From positions 19,957-66,039 of the forward strand of contig MFLS01000002.1 in assembly GCA_001781625.1 (NCBI GenBank): 46,083 nucleotides of DNA. The letters are read 5' to 3'. This document shows positions 1 through 20,537 of the stretch, one piece after another. This DNA comes from Candidatus Kaiserbacteria bacterium RIFCSPHIGHO2_12_FULL_56_13. Its GTDB lineage: Bacteria > Patescibacteriota > Minisyncoccia > Phycocordibacterales > Phycocordibacteraceae. The position numbers were made by a program, and so were the translations under genes. Under the pieces are notes generated by a model that was given only the letters and a program-made list of their open reading frames with translations, did not search any database and was not told the origin of the DNA. Numbering within the stretch: position 1 is the first letter of the stretch; each line of letters starts with the position of its first letter.

Positions 1-10
1 GACGAAATCG
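1..10 (+). ncRNA. Hammerhead ribozyme, 3' fragment cut off by the window start
   Basis: GACGAAAUCGGAAGUUCUUU (1-20) aligns with GAUGAAACAGAAGUUCUUUGAG (310-331) and GACGAAACAGAAACUCUUUGAG (2368-2389). That covers the stem II 3' strand, GAAA, stem III and the shared downstream motif. Confidence 0.4.
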
Positions 11-83
11 GAAGTTCTTTAATAACATTGAGTAGCGTCGAGTTAGATCCTCTCCAACAGAGTCCCGTAGCGTATGGTCCTGG

Positions 84-105
84 GCGAGCTGAGAAATCTG
101 CTCGC
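84..105 (+). repeat. Hairpin H0 of the GGCG...CGCC family
   Basis: GCGAGC (84-89) pairs with GCUCGC (100-105). The loop contains GAGAAAUC, as in H1 and H4, and the hairpin is preceded by GG. Confidence 0.4.
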
Positions 106-165
106 TACTCTTTTGCCACTGTTCAGCACCGTGGCGTTGAGCAAAGTTAAACAGGGTGTGGTAAT

Positions 166-186
166 GGGCGGAGAGAAATCTTCGCC
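166..186 (+). repeat. Hairpin H1 of the GGCG...CGCC family
   Basis: GGCGGAGA (167-174), GAAA loop, UCUUCGCC (179-186). 8 bp including one G-U. Confidence 0.5.
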
Positions 187-240
187 AAAATATCTAGTCT
201 GGTTTTGTACGCCCAACAGGCGCACTGCCTACTAGTGTAT

Positions 241-268
241 GGGGCGGGAGAACCAAGATTCTCCCGCC
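241..268 (+). repeat. Hairpin H2, immediately 5' of hammerhead 1
   Basis: GGCGGGAGAA (243-252) pairs with UUCUCCCGCC (259-268), 10 bp. It is followed by AACUGUC exactly as for H3. Confidence 0.6.
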
Positions 269-270
269 AA

Positions 271-319
271 CTGTCCCAGGATGTGTTTCCTGGCTGACGA
301 GTCCGAAAGGATGAAACAG
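271..319 (+). ncRNA. Type III hammerhead ribozyme, copy 1
   Basis: Stem III is CUGU (271-274) with ACAG (316-319). The cleavage triplet GUC ends at C275. Stem I hairpin is CCAGGA-UGUGUU-UCCUGG (276-293). Core is CUGACGA (294-300). Stem II is GUCC-GAAA-GGAU (301-312). GAAA lies at 313-316. Confidence 0.85.
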
Positions 320-365
320 AAGTTCTTTGAGTACGAACCACCGAACCATCAGAGGGAAAATCCAG

Positions 366-2162
366 ATGAAAAATCTCGATCTCATGGGGTCATTCCCGTA
401 CGATCGTCACCGCGTTATGCGAGACGGCCAGAAGATCGCCTTTGAAGAACTCAGGGGCGTCGAAGGTAAGGCAATCATCGAATCACCAGTCGGCACGGGT
501 AAAACCGCTGTCGGCATCACCTATCTTTCGGCGCTCGAAAAGCGTTTGAAGGCAGAACGGAATTTCGGCGGTCACCTGTTCTACATCGCGCCCAACAAGG
601 CGCTTGTCGAACAGGTGCATACGCTCTATCCGAAGGTGAATGTCGTCTACGGCCGCAACGAGCACCCGTGCTTCTACTACAAGGACGAGGACCTCAAGGC
701 GGACGAAATTCCCTGCTCAATGCTCACGGACTGCCCGCACAGGGTGGACCAGGAGACTGGGAAGACGCATACGGCCGGGGCGAAGCCTTGCGCGTACCTC
801 AAACAGAAGTACGAAGCAAAGAAGAATCCCGGCATCATCGTCTGCACCAACGCCTTCTTTCTCTACTCGGTTCTGTTCTCGAAAGAGTTTACGCCGGTAG
901 GGGTCGTCATCGACGAGGCGCATCGCATGGCACAGTCCATCCGCTCGGTTCTCCAGACGGAGATCACCGACTGGAAGGTTCAACGAGCGGTGGATGTGCT
1001 CGACGAGGTGAATCCTCGCCAATGCGCGAAGCTCTCGGCGTTCCTCGCGAGCATGAAGCGCACGGTAAAGCACTACGCGATGGGCAAGGAGACTCTGCTC
1101 GAAGAAGAGCAAATCCAGCGTCTCTACGAAACACTCTCTGCGGTTAATACTGACGCGCTCGAAGGCGAAGTCCGCCGGGCGATCGCGAAGGGTAAACTCG
1201 ACAAGAAGGCTGACCGTGAGGTCATCAAGCAAGTCGAGGACATCGCGCGGAGTGTGCGCCGCTTCAGGTACGCGCTCTCGTTCACGATGGCGACCAAGGA
1301 GCGACCGCCCCTTTCATTTATCTTCGCGTACGGCAAAACGGAGATGGGCGAGCACGACAAGGTGCAGTACAAAATCGTGGTCAAGGACTACTATGTGGTT
1401 CCCTTGATCAAGAAGATGCTGCCGGAGCACACGCTCGCCTACTCGGCGACGATATCGGACCCCGAACTCTTCGAGTTCGAGACCGGTATCAAGGGAACCT
1501 TCGCGTCAATCCCCTCCGGATTCCCGGTGGAGAACGCGCGAATCTATATGCCTACCGATACGGCAAATCTTGCGACCGCGAAATGCGGGAAGCAGGATAA
1601 GACGAGAAGCTTGCGGCTCATCGCCAAGACCGCGAAGAAATTCGCGCGAAAGGGGATGCGTTCGTTGATCATCGTCGTGTCAAACGCCGAGCGGCAGAAG
1701 TTCCTGATGCTCGCCGGAGAAGAAGGTCTTGACGTTCTCTCCTACGGAGAGGGAGTCACCGCTCGCGAATGCGCTTTTCGCTTCCAAAAGGGCGAGGGCG
1801 AATGCTTGGTCGGCACCATGGCTAACTTCGGCGAGGGTATCGACCTCCCGAAACAGATGGCACCGGTCATCTTCTACCTTCGGCCCGGCTATCCGCGCCC
1901 CAACGACCCACAAACGGTCTTTGAGGAGCGGCGCTTCCGAAATCGGCGGTGGGCGCTCTGGAATTGGCGCGTGATGGTGGAGTTGCTCCAAGTGCGGGGA
2001 CGGAACATTCGTTCCGAAACCGACCTCGGGGTCACCTTCCTCATCTCACAGCAGTTCCGGCGCTTCGCGTTTGGAGCGCTTCCCTCTTGGCTCGAGCCCG
2101 CGTATCGCGGCAACTCGACTCTCGACGAATGCGTGAAGGACGCGATGAAGTTGTTGTCGTAG
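366..2162 (+). CDS. DinG/XPD (Rad3-related) superfamily 2 DNA helicase with a 4-Cys Fe-S cluster insert
   Basis: Walker A is ESPVGTGKTAVG and the DEAH box is VVIDEAHRM. Four Cys lie between them (HPCFYY...IPCSMLTDCPH...KPCAYL). Motif V is FGEGIDLP and motif VI is QVRGRNIRSETDLG. ATG 366 is preceded by AGAGGG. The TTG at 327 in the ORF track lies only 8 nt downstream of the ribozyme's 3' end (319), with no visible SD. Confidence 0.85.
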   Translation: MKNLDLMGSFPYDRHRVMRDGQKIAFEELRGVEGKAIIESPVGTGKTAVGITYLSALEKRLKAERNFGGHLFYIAPNKALVEQVHTLYPKVNVVYGRNEHPCFYYKDEDLKADEIPCSMLTDCPHRVDQETGKTHTAGAKPCAYLKQKYEAKKNPGIIVCTNAFFLYSVLFSKEFTPVGVVIDEAHRMAQSIRSVLQTEITDWKVQRAVDVLDEVNPRQCAKLSAFLASMKRTVKHYAMGKETLLEEEQIQRLYETLSAVNTDALEGEVRRAIAKGKLDKKADREVIKQVEDIARSVRRFRYALSFTMATKERPPLSFIFAYGKTEMGEHDKVQYKIVVKDYYVVPLIKKMLPEHTLAYSATISDPELFEFETGIKGTFASIPSGFPVENARIYMPTDTANLATAKCGKQDKTRSLRLIAKTAKKFARKGMRSLIIVVSNAERQKFLMLAGEEGLDVLSYGEGVTARECAFRFQKGEGECLVGTMANFGEGIDLPKQMAPVIFYLRPGYPRPNDPQTVFEERRFRNRRWALWNWRVMVELLQVRGRNIRSETDLGVTFLISQQFRRFAFGALPSWLEPAYRGNSTLDECVKDAMKLLS

Positions 2163-2209: not shown

Positions 2210-2241
2210 GATGAGAAGGAGTAGAAATATTCCTTCTCATC
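2210..2241 (+). other. Strong stem-loop downstream of the helicase stop
   Basis: GAUGAGAAGGA (2210-2220) pairs perfectly with UCCUUCUCAUC (2231-2241), 11 bp. The loop is GUAGAAAUAU. No clean U-tract follows (GCUUUGC). Confidence 0.4.
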
Positions 2242-2298
2242 GCTTTGCACTGTCCTGCCGCGTCGTTCAGTTGGGTAAATCATTGTTCTTTATTGTTC

Positions 2299-2326
2299 GG
2301 GGCGAGGAAACTTCGGTTTCCTCGCC
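2299..2326 (+). repeat. Hairpin H3, immediately 5' of hammerhead 2
   Basis: GGCGAGGAAAC (2301-2311), UUCG loop, GUUUCCUCGCC (2316-2326), 11 bp. It is followed by AACUGUC. Confidence 0.6.
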
Positions 2327-2328
2327 AA

Positions 2329-2377
2329 CTGTCGGAGGATGTGTATCTTCCCTGATGAGTCCGAAAGGACGAAACAG
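2329..2377 (+). ncRNA. Type III hammerhead ribozyme, copy 2 (canonical core)
   Basis: Stem III is CUGU (2329-2332) with ACAG (2374-2377). GUC cleavage is after C2333. Stem I is GGAGGAU-GUGU-AUCUUCC (2334-2351). Core is CUGAUGA (2352-2358). Stem II is GUCC-GAAA-GGAC (2359-2370). GAAA lies at 2371-2374. Confidence 0.9.
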
Positions 2378-2402
2378 AAACTCTTTGAGGAGACACCATG
2401 AA

Positions 2403-2546
2403 ATGAAATCAAGCAACAAGACGAAGACGCGAGTCAAAGTCACCCTCGTCAGCACTTCGCCAATGATTCAGAACGCCTTCAGGGAGATCCTGTACTTCAC
2501 GTGCGGGACGGAGAGAAATCTCCGTCGTACATCCTGTCGGGTTTAG
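2403..2546 (+). CDS. Possible 47-aa basic peptide downstream of hammerhead 2
   Basis: GAGGAG lies 5 nt before ATG 2398, which opens only ATG-AAA-TGA. The overlapping ATG 2403 opens MKSSNKTKTRVKVTLV.... The 3' end runs through hairpin H4. No recognisable family. Confidence 0.2.
   Translation: MKSSNKTKTRVKVTLVSTSPMIQNAFREILYFTCGTERNLRRTSCRV
2501..2531 (+). repeat. Hairpin H4 of the family
   Basis: GACGGAGA (2508-2515), GAAA loop, UCUCCGUC (2520-2527). Extended by GUGC/GUAC with a GG bulge. Confidence 0.5.
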
Positions 2547-2587
2547 CTCACTTGCTTCAAGTTGCGTCAGGTCCCCTCAGGTGAACT
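2534..2587 (+). other. Probable decayed hammerhead remnant after H4
   Basis: CUGUC|GGG follows H4 just as the cleavage site follows H2 and H3. GCGUCAG-GUCC-CCUC-AGGU-GAAC (2564-2585) aligns with CUGAUGA-GUCC-GAAA-GGAC-GAAAC, but the catalytic core is mutated. Confidence 0.3.
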
Positions 2588-2589
2588 TA

Positions 2590-2615
2590 GGGGCGGAGAA
2601 CTACAGTTTTCCGCC
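2590..2615 (+). repeat. Hairpin H5 of the family
   Basis: GGCGGAGAAC (2592-2601), UACA loop, GUUUUCCGCC (2606-2615). 10 bp with one G-U. Confidence 0.55.
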
Positions 2616-2684
2616 ATTCACCCTGCTTGGTACCGTTGGGTCGTGTGTCGCAGGGTTTGCTGTTCGTTCTCAAATCTTCAGTTC

Positions 2685-2714
2685 GGGGCGGAGAAGGACT
2701 TGGTCTTTCCTGCC
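2685..2714 (+). repeat. Hairpin H6 of the family
   Basis: GGGGCGGAGAAGGAC...GUCUUUCCUGCC. About 12 bp if one A is bulged; two G-U pairs. Confidence 0.45.
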
Positions 2715-2789
2715 ACATTTTTGAGTGCAGACAGGTGGCGTGTCGCATTCTTCGTTATTCTGCAGCAAAGTCGAACTTCAGTCGAGTGC

Positions 2790-2817
2790 GGGGCGGAGAG
2801 ACTTTGGTCTCTCCGCC
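2790..2817 (+). repeat. Hairpin H7 of the family
   Basis: GGCGGAGAGAC (2792-2802), UUUG loop, GUCUCUCCGCC (2807-2817). Perfect 11 bp. Confidence 0.6.
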
Positions 2818-2878
2818 AAACATCATTGTGCAATATCGTCAGGCTGACTCTAGTTTTCTACAGTCTTATAACGTATGG

Positions 2879-2916
2879 AGCGGGTTCCCCTAAAAAGGAA
2901 CCCGCTATTTTATTTT
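2879..2916. terminator. Bidirectional intrinsic terminator (end of hairpin array / rarA)
   Basis: AGCGGGUUCC (2879-2888) pairs with GGAACCCGCU (2897-2906), followed by AUUUUAUUUU. It overlaps the rarA stop. Confidence 0.6.
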
Positions 2917-16066: not shown

Positions 16067-17455
16067 TTACTCGTTCGGGGCCTCCTTGTCTCTATCCTCC
16101 TCTTTGTCAGCCATCGTCTCGTCGCCTGCGGGAGTGGGCGTGAGCTCCTCTTCAGCGGGGAGAGCAGTCTTCTCTGCCGCCTCTTCGGTGATGATTTCGG
16201 CGCTCTCGGTAGGAGAGATTCCTGCCTCGACTGCAGCATTATCCTTCTCACCCCCCTCTGCCGAGAGGTCAACGACGGGCTCCTCGGCGATGGTGACGGC
16301 CTCACCGTCTGTGCCCGCAACGCTCGCGCCTTTTGCAGAGATGATATCGATGTTCCACCCCGTAAGCTTGGCCGCGAGCCGCACATTTTGCCCGCCGCGC
16401 CCGATCGCGAGTGACTGCTCGTCTTCTGATACGGTCACGGTCGCGCGGTGCGCCGCTTCATCGAGCGAGACCTCGAGGGGCGAGGCGGGCGACAAGGCCT
16501 CTTTGATGAAGGAGGCGGCGGTATCACTCCACTCGATGATGTCGATGCGCTCGCCGCCGAGCTCGCTCATGACGGTTGAGACCCTTACGCCACGCTGACC
16601 CACTAGGGAGCCCACTGGGTCGACATGCGGGTCAAGCGACGCGACGGCGATCTTCGTGCGACTCCCCGGCTCGCGCGCGATCGCTTTGATCTCGATCGCG
16701 CCTGATGCAAGTTCAGGCGCTTCTTGCTCGAAGAGTTTCACGACGAATTTCGGGTGCGCGCGCGAGAGGCGTAAATAGACGCTTCTAAAACCTTCCTCGA
16801 CATTGTAGAGATAGGCCCTGACGCGCTCGCCCGGGCGATAGCGCTCGCCCGGGATCTGCTCTTCATAAGGGATCACGCCCGTTGTCCTCCCCAAGTCGAC
16901 AAATATCGCGCCGCGCTCCATCCTTTGCATCACCCCGCCGACGATCTCACCTTTTTTCTCGGCAAACTCTTCGAGCATCGAGCGCTTTTCGGCCTCGCGC
17001 ACCTTTTGGATCACCACTTGCTTGGCGGTCTGCGCGGCTATGCGGCCGAAATCCTCTTGGGGCTCGAGCGGGAAGACGATCTCACTCCCCAGTTCAGCTC
17101 CCTTTTTGATACGGCGCGCGTCTTCGAGGAGGATATGCTTTTCGGCGTCAAAGCGCGGGAGCTCGCCCTCGACGACCTGCTCTTCTTCATGCGGATGGTG
17201 GAGTGCGGGCGGGGGCTCCTCGTCTCCATCGGGGAAGCGCACAAGCCCTTCATTGACGACGGTCTTGACCTGTTCGAAAGAGATAGTGCCCGTGTGCATA
17301 TCGAGCTTCGCGCGGATGACCTGCCCGCGCTTGCCGTATTCGCGCTTGTAGGCGGTTGCCATCGCGTTCTCGATTGCGTCGATCATAGTCTCGCGCGTGA
17401 TACCGCGATCTTCGAACTCGCCGAGCACTGCATTGATGGTCTTGAGATCTAACAT
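16067..17455 (-). CDS. nusA: Transcription termination/antitermination factor NusA with an acidic C-terminal tail
   Basis: An N-terminal NusA domain is followed by an S1 domain (GEIVGGVMQRMERGAIFVDLG). Two KH domains are present (GSRTKIAV..DPVGSLVGQRGVRV and AIGRGGQNVRLAAKLTGWNIDI). Confidence 0.9.
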   Translation of the reverse strand: MLDLKTINAVLGEFEDRGITRETMIDAIENAMATAYKREYGKRGQVIRAKLDMHTGTISFEQVKTVVNEGLVRFPDGDEEPPPALHHPHEEEQVVEGELPRFDAEKHILLEDARRIKKGAELGSEIVFPLEPQEDFGRIAAQTAKQVVIQKVREAEKRSMLEEFAEKKGEIVGGVMQRMERGAIFVDLGRTTGVIPYEEQIPGERYRPGERVRAYLYNVEEGFRSVYLRLSRAHPKFVVKLFEQEAPELASGAIEIKAIAREPGSRTKIAVASLDPHVDPVGSLVGQRGVRVSTVMSELGGERIDIIEWSDTAASFIKEALSPASPLEVSLDEAAHRATVTVSEDEQSLAIGRGGQNVRLAAKLTGWNIDIISAKGASVAGTDGEAVTIAEEPVVDLSAEGGEKDNAAVEAGISPTESAEIITEEAAEKTALPAEEELTPTPAGDETMADKEEDRDKEAPNE

Positions 17456-17577
17456 ATGGATTATGTATGTCGCACTTTATAAAGAAAGCCCCAAAGGGGC
17501 ATCCAGTTGCCTATAAAAATACCCGAGTGTGGGGACGAAGTCAATACCCCTCGCGCGCGCGTTATACTTTTATCTAT

Positions 17578-19323
17578 ATGCACGTTTCGGAGAGCGAGCT
17601 CAAGGACTTTATCGTTGATTCGGGTCTTGTCTCCCGCAAAGATATCGATGCCGCTCTCGTCGAGGCGAAGAAGCGCGGGTTGCCTCTTGGCGATGTTTTG
17701 GTCGGTAGCGGTGCCTTGACCGAGGACGCCCTACGGCGCATCCAGGCCTATGTGCTCGGCATCCCCTTCGTGAGCTTGAAGGAGCACAAGATACCGGTCG
17801 ATGTGCTGGCGCTCATCCCCGAGCCGATCGCCCGCACGCACAACATCATCGCTTTTAAGAAGGAGGCAGACACTCTCGCGGTTGCGATGCTCGATGTCGA
17901 GGATCTGCAATCTATCGAATCGGTACGCAAAAAGACCGAACTCAAGATTTTGCCGCGCTTGACTGATACCGATTCGATCAAGCATGCGCTTTTGCAGTAT
18001 CAAAAGTCCTTGAAGGACGAGTTCGGCGACATCATCTCGACCGAGGCAGGAAAGTTGCGTGTCGTCGCGGCCGAGGCCGAGACCTCGGGCGAAGAGCTTA
18101 AGAAGATGGCCGAAGATCTGCCTATCGTGCGCATCGTCGATACCTTGTTGAAACATGCCATCGTGCAAGACGCCTCTGATATCCACATCGAACCCATGGA
18201 GCAAGAGGTGCTCGTCCGTTACAGGATTGATGGCATTCTCCATGACGCGATGACCTTGCCGAAGGCCGCGGCGCCGGGTCTTGTCGCGCGCATCAAGGTC
18301 TTGTCGAACTTGAAGCTTGATGAGAAGCGCCTGCCGCAAGACGGCCGTTTCAAGATGGAGACCGAAGGCGACAGGGTCTCCTTTCGCGTCTCGGTGTTAC
18401 CGACCTTTTACGGCGAGAAGATCGTCATGCGCCTCCTCCGTGAGACCGGCGAGGGTTTCACCCTCGAGGCGCTCGGCTTTCACGGCCAAAGCTTAGAGCG
18501 CATCCACAGCGCTCTCAAACAAACGACCGGCATCATCCTTGCGTCAGGGCCGACCGGGAGCGGCAAAACGACGACCCTCTACACGATGCTCGACATCTTG
18601 AATACGCCCGATGTGAATATCTCGACGATCGAAGACCCCATCGAATACCAGATGAAGCGGGTCAACCAGACACAGGTCGCACCGGCGATCGGCTTTACCT
18701 TCGCCAATGGACTGCGTTCTCTCGTGCGCCAAGACCCCGACATCATCATGATAGGCGAGATCCGCGACGGCGAGACGGCCTCGCTCGCGATCAATGCCGC
18801 GCTGACCGGCCACCTCGTCCTCTCGACGATCCATACCAACTCGGCTGCAGGCGCGATCCCGCGTTTGATCGACATGGGCGTCGAGCCCTTTCTCCTCGTC
18901 TCGACCGTGAAAGTCATCATCGGTCAGCGCCTCGTGCGCCGTCTCACCGAGGCGAAAAAGGAGCACAAGCTCACCAAGGCCGAGCGTGCACAGATCGCCC
19001 TCGACGCGCACTTTGACGCGGCGCTCGCGGCGCTCAAAGAGGAGAAACTGCTCAAGGAGAATACGACAATCGAATCGGTGCCGTTTTATAAGCCCGAGCC
19101 GTCGGGCGACAGCGAGGACGGCTACAAGAGCCGTATCGGCATTCACGAAGTACTCGCGGTCTCCTCCGCGATACGCGAAGTCATCTTGCGTAAAGGCACC
19201 TCTGATGCCATCGAGACGCAGGCCAAGAGCGAAGGCATGCTCACAATGCTCGAAGACGGCCTCTATAAGGCCGTGCGCGGCGTCACCTCGCTTGAAGAGG
19301 TATTGCGTGCCGTCACCGAATAG
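17578..19323 (+). CDS. pilB: Type IV pilus / type II secretion assembly ATPase (PilB/GspE family)
   Basis: N-terminal T2SSE_N-like domain. Walker A is GPTGSGKTTTLY, followed by IEDPIEY, MIGEIRD and the His box LVLSTIHTN. Confidence 0.9.
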   Translation: MHVSESELKDFIVDSGLVSRKDIDAALVEAKKRGLPLGDVLVGSGALTEDALRRIQAYVLGIPFVSLKEHKIPVDVLALIPEPIARTHNIIAFKKEADTLAVAMLDVEDLQSIESVRKKTELKILPRLTDTDSIKHALLQYQKSLKDEFGDIISTEAGKLRVVAAEAETSGEELKKMAEDLPIVRIVDTLLKHAIVQDASDIHIEPMEQEVLVRYRIDGILHDAMTLPKAAAPGLVARIKVLSNLKLDEKRLPQDGRFKMETEGDRVSFRVSVLPTFYGEKIVMRLLRETGEGFTLEALGFHGQSLERIHSALKQTTGIILASGPTGSGKTTTLYTMLDILNTPDVNISTIEDPIEYQMKRVNQTQVAPAIGFTFANGLRSLVRQDPDIIMIGEIRDGETASLAINAALTGHLVLSTIHTNSAAGAIPRLIDMGVEPFLLVSTVKVIIGQRLVRRLTEAKKEHKLTKAERAQIALDAHFDAALAALKEEKLLKENTTIESVPFYKPEPSGDSEDGYKSRIGIHEVLAVSSAIREVILRKGTSDAIETQAKSEGMLTMLEDGLYKAVRGVTSLEEVLRAVTE

Positions 19324-19325
19324 CC

Positions 19326-20537
19326 ATGAAATTTCGTGTCACGATAAAAAAACCCGGAGCGAAAGACGAAGATCGCATCATCGAAGCTGCGTCACGCTTT
19401 GCGGTGTATGACGCAGTGCAGAAGGAGGGGGGAACGGTCGCCGCGATAGTCGAGGGCGGCGGGTTTGCGCTCCCGACGAAGTTCAACTTTGTGATCGGGA
19501 CAGGGGTGAAACGCCAAGAGATCATCACCGTAGCCACCAACCTCTCGGCGATGCTCTCTGCCGGCCTCGCGCTCGCGCGCGCCCTCTCGGTCTTGGAACG
19601 GCAGTCGCGGAACGCGCGCCTCAAGGAGATCATTACAAACATCGTCGCGACGGTGACCAAAGGCGCGACATTTCATGAGGCCCTGGCCTTGTACCCCAGG
19701 GTCTTTTCGAAGCTCTTTGTTGCCATGGTGAAAGCGGGTGAAGAGTCGGGAGGGCTCGCGACCTCTCTCAAGGTCGTCGGTATGCAGATGGAGCGCGCCG
19801 AAGAGCTCGCGCGCAAGGTCAAGGGAGCGATGATTTACCCGGCGATCGTCATTGCGGCCATTATTGTCGTCACCATATTGATGCTCGTGTTCGTCGTGCC
19901 GACCTTGTCAACGACTTTTAAGGAGCTTGGCGTCGAACTGCCGCTTGCGACCCGGGTAATCGTCGGCACCTCTGATTTCATGGTGAACAACGTGTTTCTG
20001 GTGCTGATCCTCGTTGTCCTTGTCATCGCGGGTGCGATTGTCTTTGCGCGCGGAGAGACGGGGCGCGGGCTGATCCTCAAAGCGGCGCTCATGCTACCGG
20101 TCATCGGCGAGATAGTGCGAGAGACCTTTGCGGCGCGCGCTTCGCGCACTCTCGCCTCGCTCCTTGCTTCGGGCGTCCCCGTCTTGAGCGCTCTCGAGAT
20201 CACCGAAGAGGTGGTCGGCGCCCCGCTCTTTGCCCTCGTGCTTCGCGATGCTGCCGCCCGAGTCAAGAAGGGTGACCCTCTTTCTGCATCCTTCATCGAG
20301 CACCCAGAGCTCTATCCCCTCATGATGAGCGACATGATCGCGGTCGGTGAAGAGACCGGAAAGCTCTCGGAGATGCTTCAGCAGGTGGCTGAGTTTTACG
20401 AGGGAGATGTCGCACAGAAGACCAAGGACCTCTCAACGATCATCGAGCCCTTGCTCATGCTCTTTATCGGAGGCGTCGTCGGCATTTTTGCCGTCGCGAT
20501 GATCTCGCCAATCTACTCACTTTCTGAAGCGATTTGA
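19326..20537 (+). CDS. pilC: Type IV pilus platform protein (PilC/GspF family)
   Basis: Two GspF repeats and three TM segments; IAVGEETGKLSEML is present. Confidence 0.9.
   Translation: MKFRVTIKKPGAKDEDRIIEAASRFAVYDAVQKEGGTVAAIVEGGGFALPTKFNFVIGTGVKRQEIITVATNLSAMLSAGLALARALSVLERQSRNARLKEIITNIVATVTKGATFHEALALYPRVFSKLFVAMVKAGEESGGLATSLKVVGMQMERAEELARKVKGAMIYPAIVIAAIIVVTILMLVFVVPTLSTTFKELGVELPLATRVIVGTSDFMVNNVFLVLILVVLVIAGAIVFARGETGRGLILKAALMLPVIGEIVRETFAARASRTLASLLASGVPVLSALEITEEVVGAPLFALVLRDAAARVKKGDPLSASFIEHPELYPLMMSDMIAVGEETGKLSEMLQQVAEFYEGDVAQKTKDLSTIIEPLLMLFIGGVVGIFAVAMISPIYSLSEAI

What the first reader, a model, noticed from the sequence alone, without database searches (positions are those of the whole stretch)
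366..2162. Fe-S helicase as the only large cargo of the ribozyme/hairpin locus
The protein has all SF2 motifs and a 4-Cys insert between Walker A and DEAH, as in XPD/DinG. It is not next to any usual repair partner.

DinG-type helicases are recruited as effectors in some RNA-guided systems (type IV CRISPR-Cas). An adjacent array of structured small RNAs raises the speculative possibility of an RNA-helicase partnership or a defence or mobile module. No cas, reverse transcriptase, integrase or transposase gene is visible here.

The flanking non-coding DNA looks noticeably more AT-rich than the rest of the window. I judged this by eye and did not compute it.
Basis: partly seen in the sequence, partly recalled or inferred. 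Interest (0 to 1): 0.6.

Follow-up and report, generated by a model that had tools for sequence, protein, structure and literature searches.

The report
Helicase partner of a VIPR RNA-guided system
The iron-sulfur helicase is the accessory gene of a small horizontally acquired VIPR-type RNA-guided system (a Cas7-like Vipr protein plus arrays of pentamer-repeat guide RNAs cut apart by hammerhead ribozymes), a kind of system first described in 2026 preprints, here inserted in a tiny Patescibacteria-like genome.

Summary
Window 366-2162 encodes a 598-aa XPD/DinG-fold SF2 helicase. Walker A, DEAH, motif VI and four cysteines (C102, C117, C123, C142) are conserved across 24 homologues.

It is not a housekeeping repair gene. 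It was found in 0 of 100 other genomes of its family and in 4 of 401 of its class. It lies in a 6.1-kb insertion between HU and rarA, which are direct neighbours in a same-genus genome.

It encodes a 239-aa protein whose profile matches the solved SUSP1 Vipr protein (E 2e-9) and whose model has a Cas7/Csm3 fold. This gene and the helicase occur together in the same 4 of 401 genomes, and in all 7 related loci examined.

The "hairpin array" consists of guide-RNA-like units: 7-12 pentamers with a fixed G-Y dinucleotide, each ending in a GGCGG...CCGCC hairpin. Five type III hammerheads are interspersed with them.

This matches published VIPR systems, which include helicase accessories and ribozyme-interspersed arrays. 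I rate it a new member of a known kind. No targets were found, and RNA data could not be examined.

The parts
1..24 (+). 3' end of a fifth hammerhead (GACGAAAUCGGAAGUUCUUU). Its 5' part is hidden by the N run at C2:19939-19956.
   Evidence: It matches the GAAAUCGGAAguucuuu variant of the L007 hammerhead.
32..106 (+). vrRNA-like unit: G-Y pentamer tract 32-81 plus tail hairpin 83-106
   Evidence: Tract with 8/10 pentamers carrying [G/C]T. Hairpin dG -12.9, z -3.9.
121..186 (+). vrRNA-like unit: pentamer tract 121-165 plus tail hairpin 167-186
197..268 (+). vrRNA-like unit: pentamer tract 197-241 plus tail hairpin 243-268, directly abutting hammerhead 3
268..322 (+). Type III hammerhead (HH3). 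Predicted cut after C275. Core is CUGACGA, with a G10.1-U11.1 pair.
   Evidence: Rfam RF00008 35.8 bits, E 2.4e-5. Own model R1 102 bits. Covariation.
366..2162 (+). XPD/DinG-fold 4-Cys (Fe-S type) SF2 helicase, 598 aa. Candidate VIPR accessory protein (Vap).
   Evidence: Co-occurs with vipr.
2210..2241 (+). 14-bp inverted repeat after the helicase stop codon; role unknown
   Evidence: I15, 93% complementary
2250..2326 (+). vrRNA-like unit: pentamer tract 2250-2299 plus tail hairpin 2301-2326
2326..2380 (+). Type III hammerhead (HH4) with a canonical core. Predicted cut after C2333.
   Evidence: RF00008 40.2 bits, E 1.4e-6. R1 106.6 bits.
2403..2546 (+). 47-codon ORF: remnant of a Vipr N-terminus (VKVTLVSTSPMIQNA)
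   Evidence: BLASTP against Vipr residues 39-57: 47% identity, E 5e-6
2507..2526 (+). tail-type hairpin GACGGAGA..UCUCCGUC
   Evidence: dG -12.8, z -6.6
2536..2615 (+). vrRNA-like unit: pentamer tract 2536-2590 (9/11) plus hairpin 2592-2615
2630..2714 (+). vrRNA-like unit: pentamer tract 2630-2664 plus hairpin 2687-2714
2725..2817 (+). vrRNA-like unit: pentamer tract 2725-2774 plus hairpin 2792-2817
2828..2916 (+). Last unit: pentamer tract 2828-2877 plus hairpin 2879-2906 followed by a T run. It likely serves as tail and intrinsic terminator, and marks the right end of the island, next to the rarA stop at 2910.
   Evidence: Empty site in G089.

Best explanation
The helicase is the accessory (Vap-like) enzyme of a VIPR-type RNA-guided system. 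The system sits on a 6.1-kb horizontally acquired island (G000:C2:16723-22865, which is window -3233 to 2909) inserted between HU and rarA.

Components of the island:
- two small genes, A and B;
- a vipr gene (C2:17687-18406) encoding a minimal Cas7-like RAMP;
- a conserved 119-aa gene D;
- the helicase;
- about 15 guide-like units, each with 7-12 pentamers carrying a fixed G-Y dinucleotide and ending in a GGCGG...CCGCC hairpin tail;
- five type III hammerheads, each placed directly 3' of a tail hairpin.

Inferred working:
1. The + strand is transcribed as long precursors.
2. Hammerhead self-cleavage just after hairpin-AACUGUC separates the guide arrays from the D and helicase mRNAs and fixes guide 3' ends.
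3. Vipr protomers polymerise on the pentamer tracts, flipping out the fixed bases and presenting the variable ones for gapped pairing with double-stranded DNA of a competing mobile element or phage.
4. The Fe-S helicase is then recruited to the bound target. It would act as a 5'-3' translocase that extends silencing or displaces the target's replication or transcription machinery, as CasDinG does for type IV-A CRISPR.

Shown here: gene content, homology, co-occurrence, the insertion, the repeat periodicity and the ribozyme and hairpin structures.

Inferred only: transcription, processing, RNP formation, targeting and the helicase's role.

The confidence given is for the identity of the module (a VIPR-type system with the helicase as its accessory gene). 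The helicase's specific role is much less certain, roughly 0.4.
For: Vipr homology:
- The profile of protein C homologues hits PDB 36pp 'SUSP1 Vipr protein' at E 2.1e-9 over 187 of 211 positions. The G-loop GxGD[W/H/F]R..FGRF aligns.
- The C model (pLDDT 73) matches Csm3, type VII Cas7 and gRAMP at Foldseek probability 1.0, E 4e-7.
- C hits phrog_4652.

Co-occurrence:
- The same 4 of 401 class genomes carry both helicase and vipr.
- All 7 related loci have vipr upstream of the helicase on the same strand.

Accessory status and insertion:
- The helicase was found in 0 of 100 other genomes of the family.
- HU and rarA are adjacent in same-genus G089.
- Flanking genes differ in every relative.

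Guide-like RNAs:
- [G/C]T dinucleotides show lag-5, -10, -15, -20 and -25 periodicity in all four non-coding arrays and none in coding sequence.
- There are 13 tracts in the 6.2-kb island against 26 weaker ones in 1.02 Mb (both strands) of the rest of the genome. Most end exactly at a hairpin.
- The same G-Y tracts plus GGGCGG tails occur on the gene strand in the relatives.
- Eighteen stable hairpins have z-scores of -3.8 to -6.9.

Hammerheads: units with covariation were found in L006, L007, L009 and L019.

Literature: VIPR systems consist of a Vipr RAMP plus vrRNAs with 9-16 pentamer repeats and a structured 3' tail. The papers also report hammerhead-interspersed arrays, helicase or nuclease vap genes, and 25% of systems on chromosomes (PMC13142463; 10.64898/2026.04.26.720927). 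Non-canonical pentamers are reported in 10.64898/2026.10.21.760802.
Against:
- No target was found. Local scans under 12 pairing rules gave only chance-level matches. Exact-match scans of three guides under period-3 rules found nothing in viral, metagenome or genome collections.
- The repeat consensus has only two fixed positions (G 0.70, Y 0.94), not the canonical GGY.
- Sequence similarity to the solved Vipr is visible only at profile level. PADLOC and Pfam have no model for C.
- No phage genes are on the island, and close relatives are absent from IMG/VR and GenBank phages.
- The helicase's functional link to Vipr rests on co-occurrence alone.
Confidence: 0.8

Rival explanations
1. Housekeeping DinG/XPD-type DNA repair helicase of the host that merely lies beside unrelated ribozymes.
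For: It has the XPD/DinG fold and an intact 4-Cys cluster. Overall GC and codon-usage distance are ordinary. More than 300 homologues exist in Patescibacteria metagenomes.
Against: It was found in 0 of 100 genomes of the same family and 4 of 401 of the class. It sits on a 6.1-kb insertion that is absent at the HU|rarA site of a same-genus genome. It always occurs with vipr. NCBIfam DinG, YoaA and rad3 scores are 28-36 bits against cut-offs of 247-789.
Confidence: 0.03
2. Degenerate or minimal type IV CRISPR-Cas module in which the helicase is CasDinG (Csf4) and the hairpins are decayed CRISPR repeats.
For: The best PADLOC hit is a 'typeIV_DinG, CAS-IV-A associated' model over its full length, E 1.5e-34. 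The partner protein has a Cas7-like fold. Hairpin-containing units are spaced 80-105 nt apart.
Against: TIGR03117 Csf4 scores 15 bits against a cut-off of 400. CasDinG structures rank below DinG and XPD. PADLOC gives no Csf1, Csf2, Csf3 or Csf5 hits, and there is no CRISPR array in the island. The 'spacers' have 5-nt periodicity, and the hairpins differ by compensatory changes rather than being identical. The partner matches Vipr by sequence.
Confidence: 0.05
3. Ribozyme-bounded RNA element: the two hammerheads release a 2058-nt helicase RNA with 5'-OH and 2',3'-cyclic phosphate ends. This RNA is circularised or mobilised, like a retrozyme or viroid, and the helicase serves that element.
For: Hammerheads bracket the gene in the same orientation, and do so in relatives too. 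A 2454-nt Logan contig begins and ends inside hammerheads.
Against: No RtcB ligase was found in the genome, which is 89% complete. There is no reverse transcriptase or replicase. The same protein and the same pair of hammerheads lie on a 106-kb chromosomal contig, so the short contig is most simply an assembly break at repeats. Distant relatives keep vipr, helicase, tracts and hairpins but lack the hammerhead core, so the ribozyme is dispensable for the module.
Confidence: 0.05
4. Remnant of a prophage or satellite whose replication helicase survives, with the RNA repeats serving phage regulation.
For: The helicase hits phrog_2488 (2e-37) and protein C hits phrog_4652 (8.5e-11). One relative has a serine recombinase beside the module. 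VIPRs are mostly viral or proviral (PMC13142463).
Against: The island has no structural, lysis or integrase genes. No terminal repeats were found. IMG/VR and GenBank phages hold no close relatives. The module is conserved as a compact unit in different chromosomal sites. This rival is compatible with a VIPR identity and concerns only its origin.
Confidence: 0.1

Closest known systems
VIPR (Viral Interference Programmable Repeat) systems: Vipr RAMP, vrRNA and vap genes (PMC13142463; 10.64898/2026.04.26.720927)
   Same: - A small single-RRM RAMP with a G-loop, matching the solved SUSP1 Vipr by profile.
- Long intergenic regions carrying arrays of units about 80-100 nt long, made of pentamer repeats capped by a structured 3' tail.
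- Hammerhead-interspersed arrays.
- An adjacent accessory gene predicted to act on DNA; helicases are reported for some types.
- No CRISPR array and no cas1.
- Patchy, horizontally transferred distribution.
   Different: - The repeat consensus is xGY/NN (or GY/NNN), with the first G degenerate, instead of GGY/NN.
- The tail is a simple GC hairpin, not the SUSP1 pseudoknot.
- The location is a chromosomal island of a tiny Patescibacteria-like genome, with no phage genes.
- Hammerheads also bracket the protein-coding genes.
- The published type assignment could not be made: the authors' tree and data S4 were not available.
Type IV-A CRISPR-Cas with CasDinG (Csf4)
   Same: A RAMP-based RNA-guided complex paired with a DinG/XPD-family 5'-3' helicase and no nuclease. 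A PADLOC type IV DinG-associated model matches the helicase over its full length.
   Different: There is no CRISPR array, Cas6, Cas5 or large subunit. The helicase keeps all four Fe-S cysteines, whereas CasDinG is described as having a vestigial Fe-S domain (own knowledge). It is structurally nearer to DinG and XPD than to CasDinG.
XPD/Rad3 and bacterial DinG/YoaA repair helicases
   Same: The domain order is HD1, 4-Cys Fe-S domain, Arch, HD2. The SF2 motifs are present. Foldseek gives E 1e-22 to 3e-24 with TM up to 0.70-0.73. The profile hits XPD at 4e-16.
   Different: Identity is 13-17%. Scores are far below the NCBIfam cut-offs. The gene is accessory, sits on an inserted island and has a RAMP gene as its fixed partner.
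Bacterial and phage type III hammerhead ribozymes (Rfam RF00008)
   Same: Conserved core CUGAUGA...GAAA, three stems with covariation, an open stem III and a GUC cleavage site.
   Different: Scores are 33-42 bits, below the gathering score of 48.5. Stem III is only 4 bp. Each ribozyme is always fused 3' of a GC hairpin. The stem I loop (AUGUGUAU) and the GAAA stem II loop are conserved.

Membership tests
VIPR system | Vipr protein: minimal RAMP with an RRM core, a glycine-rich loop and a thumb | tested here: met
   Profile A3 against PDB 36pp_D SUSP1 Vipr gives E 2.1e-9, with the G-loop aligned. The AF2 model matches Cas7/Csm3 at probability 1.0.
VIPR system | vrRNA with 9-16 tandem pentanucleotide repeats, GGY/NN or a related consensus | tested here: met
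   The arrays show 5-nt periodicity and coding sequence does not. Tracts have 7-12 repeats. The logo is G 0.70 and Y 0.94 at two positions, with the other three flat. This is a related consensus, not the canonical one.
VIPR system | Structured, conserved 3' tail after the repeat tract | tested here: met
   Tracts end at GGCGG...CCGCC hairpins. There are 18 hairpins with z-scores -3.8 to -6.9 and compensatory changes between copies.
VIPR system | Minimal locus: vipr plus an accessory vap gene, long intergenic regions, no CRISPR array or adaptation genes | tested here: met
   Island content. Strict vipr-helicase co-occurrence. No CRISPR family at Rfam gathering score.
VIPR system | vrRNAs are expressed, processed and bound by Vipr | not testable with these tools
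VIPR system | Gapped (1-nt skip) pairing to double-stranded DNA targets in competing mobile elements | tested here: inconclusive
   No match above shuffled controls in local DNA. No exact matches for three guides in public collections.
VIPR system | Viral or proviral location (about 71% of described systems) | tested here: not met
   The island is chromosomal and carries no phage genes. This is compatible with the 25.5% of VIPRs reported on chromosomes.
XPD/DinG (Rad3-like Fe-S SF2 helicases) | SF2 motifs I, II (DEAH) and VI, plus a 4-Cys domain between motifs Ia and II and an Arch domain | tested here: met
   Invariant columns. Model and Foldseek. Profile hits to XPD, FANCJ and DinG.
XPD/DinG (Rad3-like Fe-S SF2 helicases) | Equivalog-level membership (NCBIfam DinG, YoaA, rad3 cut-offs) | tested here: not met
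   Scores of 28-36 bits against cut-offs of 247-789.
CasDinG / Csf4 | TIGR03117 score; association with Csf1-3, Csf5 and a CRISPR array | tested here: not met
   15.4 bits against a cut-off of 400. No Csf hits. No array. One PADLOC 'associated' DinG model does match at 1.5e-34.
Hammerhead ribozyme type III (RF00008) | Rfam gathering score | tested here: not met
   35.8-41.3 bits against 48.5.
Hammerhead ribozyme type III (RF00008) | Catalytic core and three helices supported by covariation | tested here: met
   Of 26 predicted pairs in the hairpin-plus-hammerhead alignment, 21 show double-sided changes. Stem III switches between CUGU/ACAG and CGAU/AUCG. Exceptions: HH1 has C at core position 4, and HH3 has a G-U pair at 10.1-11.1.
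Hammerhead ribozyme type III (RF00008) | Self-cleavage activity | not testable with these tools
   Needs in vitro transcription or RNA end mapping.

The most novel reading that the evidence does not exclude
This Patescibacteria clade is a distinct VIPR variant in three respects.
- Only two bases per pentamer are fixed (G-Y). The code may therefore read three variable bases per repeat rather than two, which would be a different gapped-pairing rule.
- An XPD-like helicase with an intact Fe-S cluster is the obligate effector. That would make it a functional counterpart, and perhaps an evolutionary precursor, of the RAMP-plus-DinG arrangement of type IV CRISPR.
- Hammerheads process both the guides and the effector mRNAs.
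Probability: 0.2. Interest if true: 0.8.

Novelty: new member of a known kind. Interest (0 to 1): 0.5.

Why it matters
VIPR systems were described only in 2026, and their helicase-bearing types are uncharacterised. This locus and its more than 300 helicase homologues (46-74% identity in those compared) give a compact, well-delimited example with four useful properties:
- The RAMP and an Fe-S XPD/DinG helicase show strict co-occurrence.
- The guide units are easy to read.
- Ribozymes define the ends of the RNAs.
- The host has a genome of about 0.5-0.6 Mb, in which any accessory cassette is unusual.

The locus offers a direct test of how a helicase is coupled to a Vipr filament. It also allows a test of whether a degenerate GY pentamer changes the recognition code. 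For genome annotation, it shows that 'Rad3-related helicase' calls in Patescibacteria MAGs can mark RNA-guided systems rather than repair genes.

Tried and rejected
- Core-gene idea: rejected by the family and class surveys.
- Phage or prophage origin: GenBank phages hold only helicases of 24-26% identity in jumbo phages. The gene next to the Ralstonia phage RsoM2USA helicase is not a Vipr. IMG/VR has no close relative of the helicase or of protein C. With a profile it yields helicases of only 20-29% identity, none with a Vipr neighbour. Protein C has no tblastn match in phages.
- Island ends: no direct or inverted repeats beyond chance.
- Proteins A, B and D: no informative Pfam, PHROG, PADLOC or PDB match, apart from a zinc ribbon in B.
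- Target search: 12 pairing rules against the genome and all held loci gave chance-level scores, apart from the trivial self-match at period 5. Six exact-pattern scans of public collections gave nothing.
- 'Decayed hammerhead copies' as the explanation for the inter-hairpin DNA: not favoured. The segments carry strand-specific 5-nt G-Y periodicity that also occurs in relatives lacking hammerheads.
- RNA circularisation: no RtcB found.
- Literature: searches for hammerheads in candidate phyla radiation bacteria, or hammerheads with DinG, gave nothing relevant.
Full report
**1. The observation**

Window 366-2162 (+) is a 598-aa ORF.
- Pfam finds DEAD, ResIII and Helicase_C_2.
- NCBIfam gives only weak DinG, YoaA and rad3 hits: 28-36 bits against cut-offs of 247-789.
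- In an alignment of 24 homologues (49-74% identity), Walker A, DEAH, motif VI and four cysteines are invariant or at least 90% conserved. The cysteines are C102, C117, C123 and C142 and lie between motif Ia and DEAH.
- An AlphaFold2 model (pLDDT 88.6) is closest to E. coli DinG (E 3e-24) and archaeal XPD (2e-23). CasDinG structures rank lower, at 7.5e-18 to 1e-15.
- A profile search of PDB sequences ranks XPD, FANCJ, archaeal XPD and DinG.

The XPD/DinG-type 4-Cys helicase is therefore real.

The flanking hammerheads are also real.
- RF00008 matches lie at 268-322 and 2326-2380. They score below the gathering threshold.
- All three stems covary across relatives. Stem III, for example, switches between CUGU/ACAG and CGAU/AUCG.

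The AT-richer flanks are confirmed but unremarkable. Their GC is 0.50, against 0.576 for the gene and 0.562 for the genome. The 5th percentile of genome windows is 0.49. The helicase's codon-usage distance is average. Its GC3 is at the 97th percentile, and that of the upstream vipr gene is the highest in the genome.

**2. The locus is larger than the window**

The window is G000:C2:19957-66039, in a 512-kb assembly that is 89% complete. It begins right after an 18-N run.

Two more hammerheads lie upstream, at C2:18599-18653 and 19486-19540. Window 1-24 is the 3' end of a fifth hammerhead.

The upstream genes on the same strand are:

| Gene | Position (C2) | Size | Note |
|---|---|---|---|
| A | 16864-17283 | 139 aa | no informative match |
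| B | 17280-17531 | 83 aa | zinc ribbon |
| C | 17687-18406 | 239 aa | Vipr homologue (section 5) |
| D | 18792-19151 | 119 aa | no informative match |

**3. It is an inserted accessory island**

The helicase was not found in 100 other genomes of the same family, 63 of them from the same genus. In the class it occurs in 4 of 401 genomes, counting G000.

In same-genus genome G089, the HU gene and rarA are convergent neighbours separated only by a terminator. In G000, 6.1 kb lie between them. No terminal repeats were detected.

**4. A conserved module**

The helicase has more than 300 homologues in Patescibacteria, Kaiserbacteria and Parcubacteria metagenome bins; those compared are 46-74% identical.

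In all seven related loci examined, a homologue of protein C lies upstream on the same strand, at 34-68% identity.
- D is present in the closer relatives.
- A and B lie downstream of the helicase in one relative.
- The surrounding housekeeping genes differ each time.
- One locus has a serine recombinase next to the module.

A profile of C finds exactly the same 4 of 401 class genomes that carry the helicase.

**5. What protein C is**

Pfam and PADLOC give nothing for C, and PHROGs gives phrog_4652, of unknown function.

A profile of 15 homologues hits a single PDB entry: 36pp, 'SUSP1 Vipr protein'. The E-value is 2.1e-9 over 187 of 211 positions, and the C-terminal G-loop GxGD[W/H/F]R...FGRF aligns.

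The AF2 model (pLDDT 73, core 80-93) matches Csm3, type VII Cas7 and gRAMP at Foldseek probability 1.0.

Vipr is the minimal RAMP of the recently described VIPR systems (PMC13142463). According to that paper:
- a VIPR system is Vipr plus vrRNAs of 9-16 YNNGG pentamers followed by a structured 3' tail;
- the locus is minimal and carries an accessory vap gene;
- there are seven types;
- some types have hammerhead-interspersed arrays;
- types III-V have nuclease or helicase vaps;
- 25.5% of systems are on chromosomes.

A companion structural paper notes helicase accessories whose role is unknown. Another preprint reports non-canonical pentamers.

**6. The 'hairpin array' consists of guide-like units**

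[G/C]T dinucleotides recur at lags 5, 10, 15, 20 and 25 in all four non-coding arrays. They do not in the helicase or vipr coding sequences.

Thirteen tracts of 7-12 pentamers lie on the + strand of the 6.2-kb island. The remaining 1.02 Mb (both strands) holds 26 weaker ones. Most island tracts end exactly at a GGCGG...CCGCC hairpin.

Eighteen such hairpins are stable, with z-scores of -3.8 to -6.9, and differ by compensatory changes.

Relatives show the same pattern, often more cleanly. One tract in L018 has 14-16 G-Y-N-N-N repeats before GGGCGG. The tracts are strongly biased to the gene strand.

The pooled logo (1616 pentamers) is G 0.70 / C 0.23 at the first position and T 0.61 / C 0.33 at the second. 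The other three positions are flat. This reads as xGY/NN, that is, GGY/NN with a degenerate first G.

The G-loop residues that read G1, G2 and Y3 in SUSP1 Vipr are D, W and R. In C they are D, H or F, and R.

**7. The role of the hammerheads**

Each hammerhead abuts a tail hairpin, and the predicted cut falls after hairpin-AACUGUC. Model R1, built on hairpin plus hammerhead, finds strong units between vipr, D and the helicase, and after the helicase, in L006, L007 and L009, and one strong unit between vipr and the helicase in L019. It finds none at the empty site.

More distant relatives (L011, L017, L018) keep tracts and tails but lack the hammerhead core. The ribozyme is therefore a processing add-on of one subclade.

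Two of the own copies deviate from the consensus. HH1 has C at core position 4, and HH3 has a G-U pair at 10.1-11.1.

**8. Mechanism (inferred)**

1. Long + strand transcripts are made.
2. Ribozyme cuts separate the guide arrays from the D and helicase mRNAs and fix guide 3' ends.
3. Vipr filaments assemble on the pentamer tracts and bind matching double-stranded DNA by gapped pairing.
4. The Fe-S helicase, which has no nuclease domain, is recruited to the bound site. It acts as a 5'-3' translocase that reinforces silencing or clears the target, by analogy with CasDinG in type IV-A.

Only the anatomy, homology and co-occurrence are shown here. Expression, processing, binding and targeting are not.

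**9. What failed**

- No targets were found.
- RtcB was not found, which weighs against circularisation of the 2058-nt inter-ribozyme RNA.
- No close relatives exist in phage collections.

**10. Verdict**

The 'missing' cas-like partner exists just outside the window. The system belongs to a kind already published in 2026, so this is a new member of that kind.

Its particular features are a degenerate GY pentamer, a simple hairpin tail, an intact Fe-S XPD/DinG helicase, ribozymes that also bracket the mRNAs, and a Patescibacteria host.

Other first-stage notes of this scan on the same DNA had already listed the hammerheads, the hairpin family and the truncated upstream hammerhead.

Noticed in passing
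window 2403-2546: The 47-codon ORF after hammerhead 4 resembles the N-terminal beta-strand of Vipr (VKVTLVSTSPMIQNA against IAITLISRQPMLQNA; E 5e-6). It is probably the stump of a second vipr copy or of a rearrangement.
   Followed up: partly
G000:C2:19939-19956 (just before window base 1): An 18-N run hides the 5' part of a fifth hammerhead and probably its tail hairpin. It is either a scaffold gap or a withheld stretch.
   Followed up: no
L040 1137-1191; L041 6653-7291; L039 1125-2725 and 2991-5741: The HU|rarA intergenic site varies within the genus: about 55 nt in G089, 637 nt with a minus-strand ORF in G507, and 1.6 kb in G088, which also has a further 2.7-kb stretch between HU and the next conserved gene. 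It may be an insertion hotspot.
   Followed up: no
L005 16864-17531 (G000:C2): Genes A (139 aa) and B (83 aa, zinc ribbon) have their own promoter-like site and terminator and lie inside the island. Homologues lie downstream of the arrays in L007 (9716-10119). They may be further accessory genes.
   Followed up: partly
L010 (Logan contig, 2454 nt): The contig starts and ends inside hammerhead units that flank the helicase gene. The same protein, flanked by the same pair of hammerheads, lies on a 106-kb contig (L009), so this looks like an assembly break at repeated ribozymes rather than a circle.
   Followed up: partly
L005 18599-18653 and window 268-322: HH1 carries C instead of U at core position 4 (CCGAUGA). 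HH3 has a G10.1-U11.1 wobble pair. HH2 and HH4 are canonical. The copies may differ in activity.
   Followed up: no
L005 1816-1850 (G000:C2): Sub-threshold CRISPR-DR29 match (28.9 bits, gathering score 39, E 0.014), 15 kb upstream of the island.
   Followed up: no
L005 17687-18406 and window 366-2162: GC3 is 0.854 for vipr and 0.758 for the helicase. These lie at the 100th and 97th percentiles of 324 long ORFs of the genome, although overall GC and codon-usage distance are ordinary.
   Followed up: partly
L011 3913-4762; L017 and L018 arrays: In helicase relatives of about 50% identity, the tails read GGGGCGGGG...CCCCGCCAACUAAUC with no hammerhead core behind them. The post-hairpin CCAACU motif is conserved with or without the ribozyme.
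   Followed up: partly
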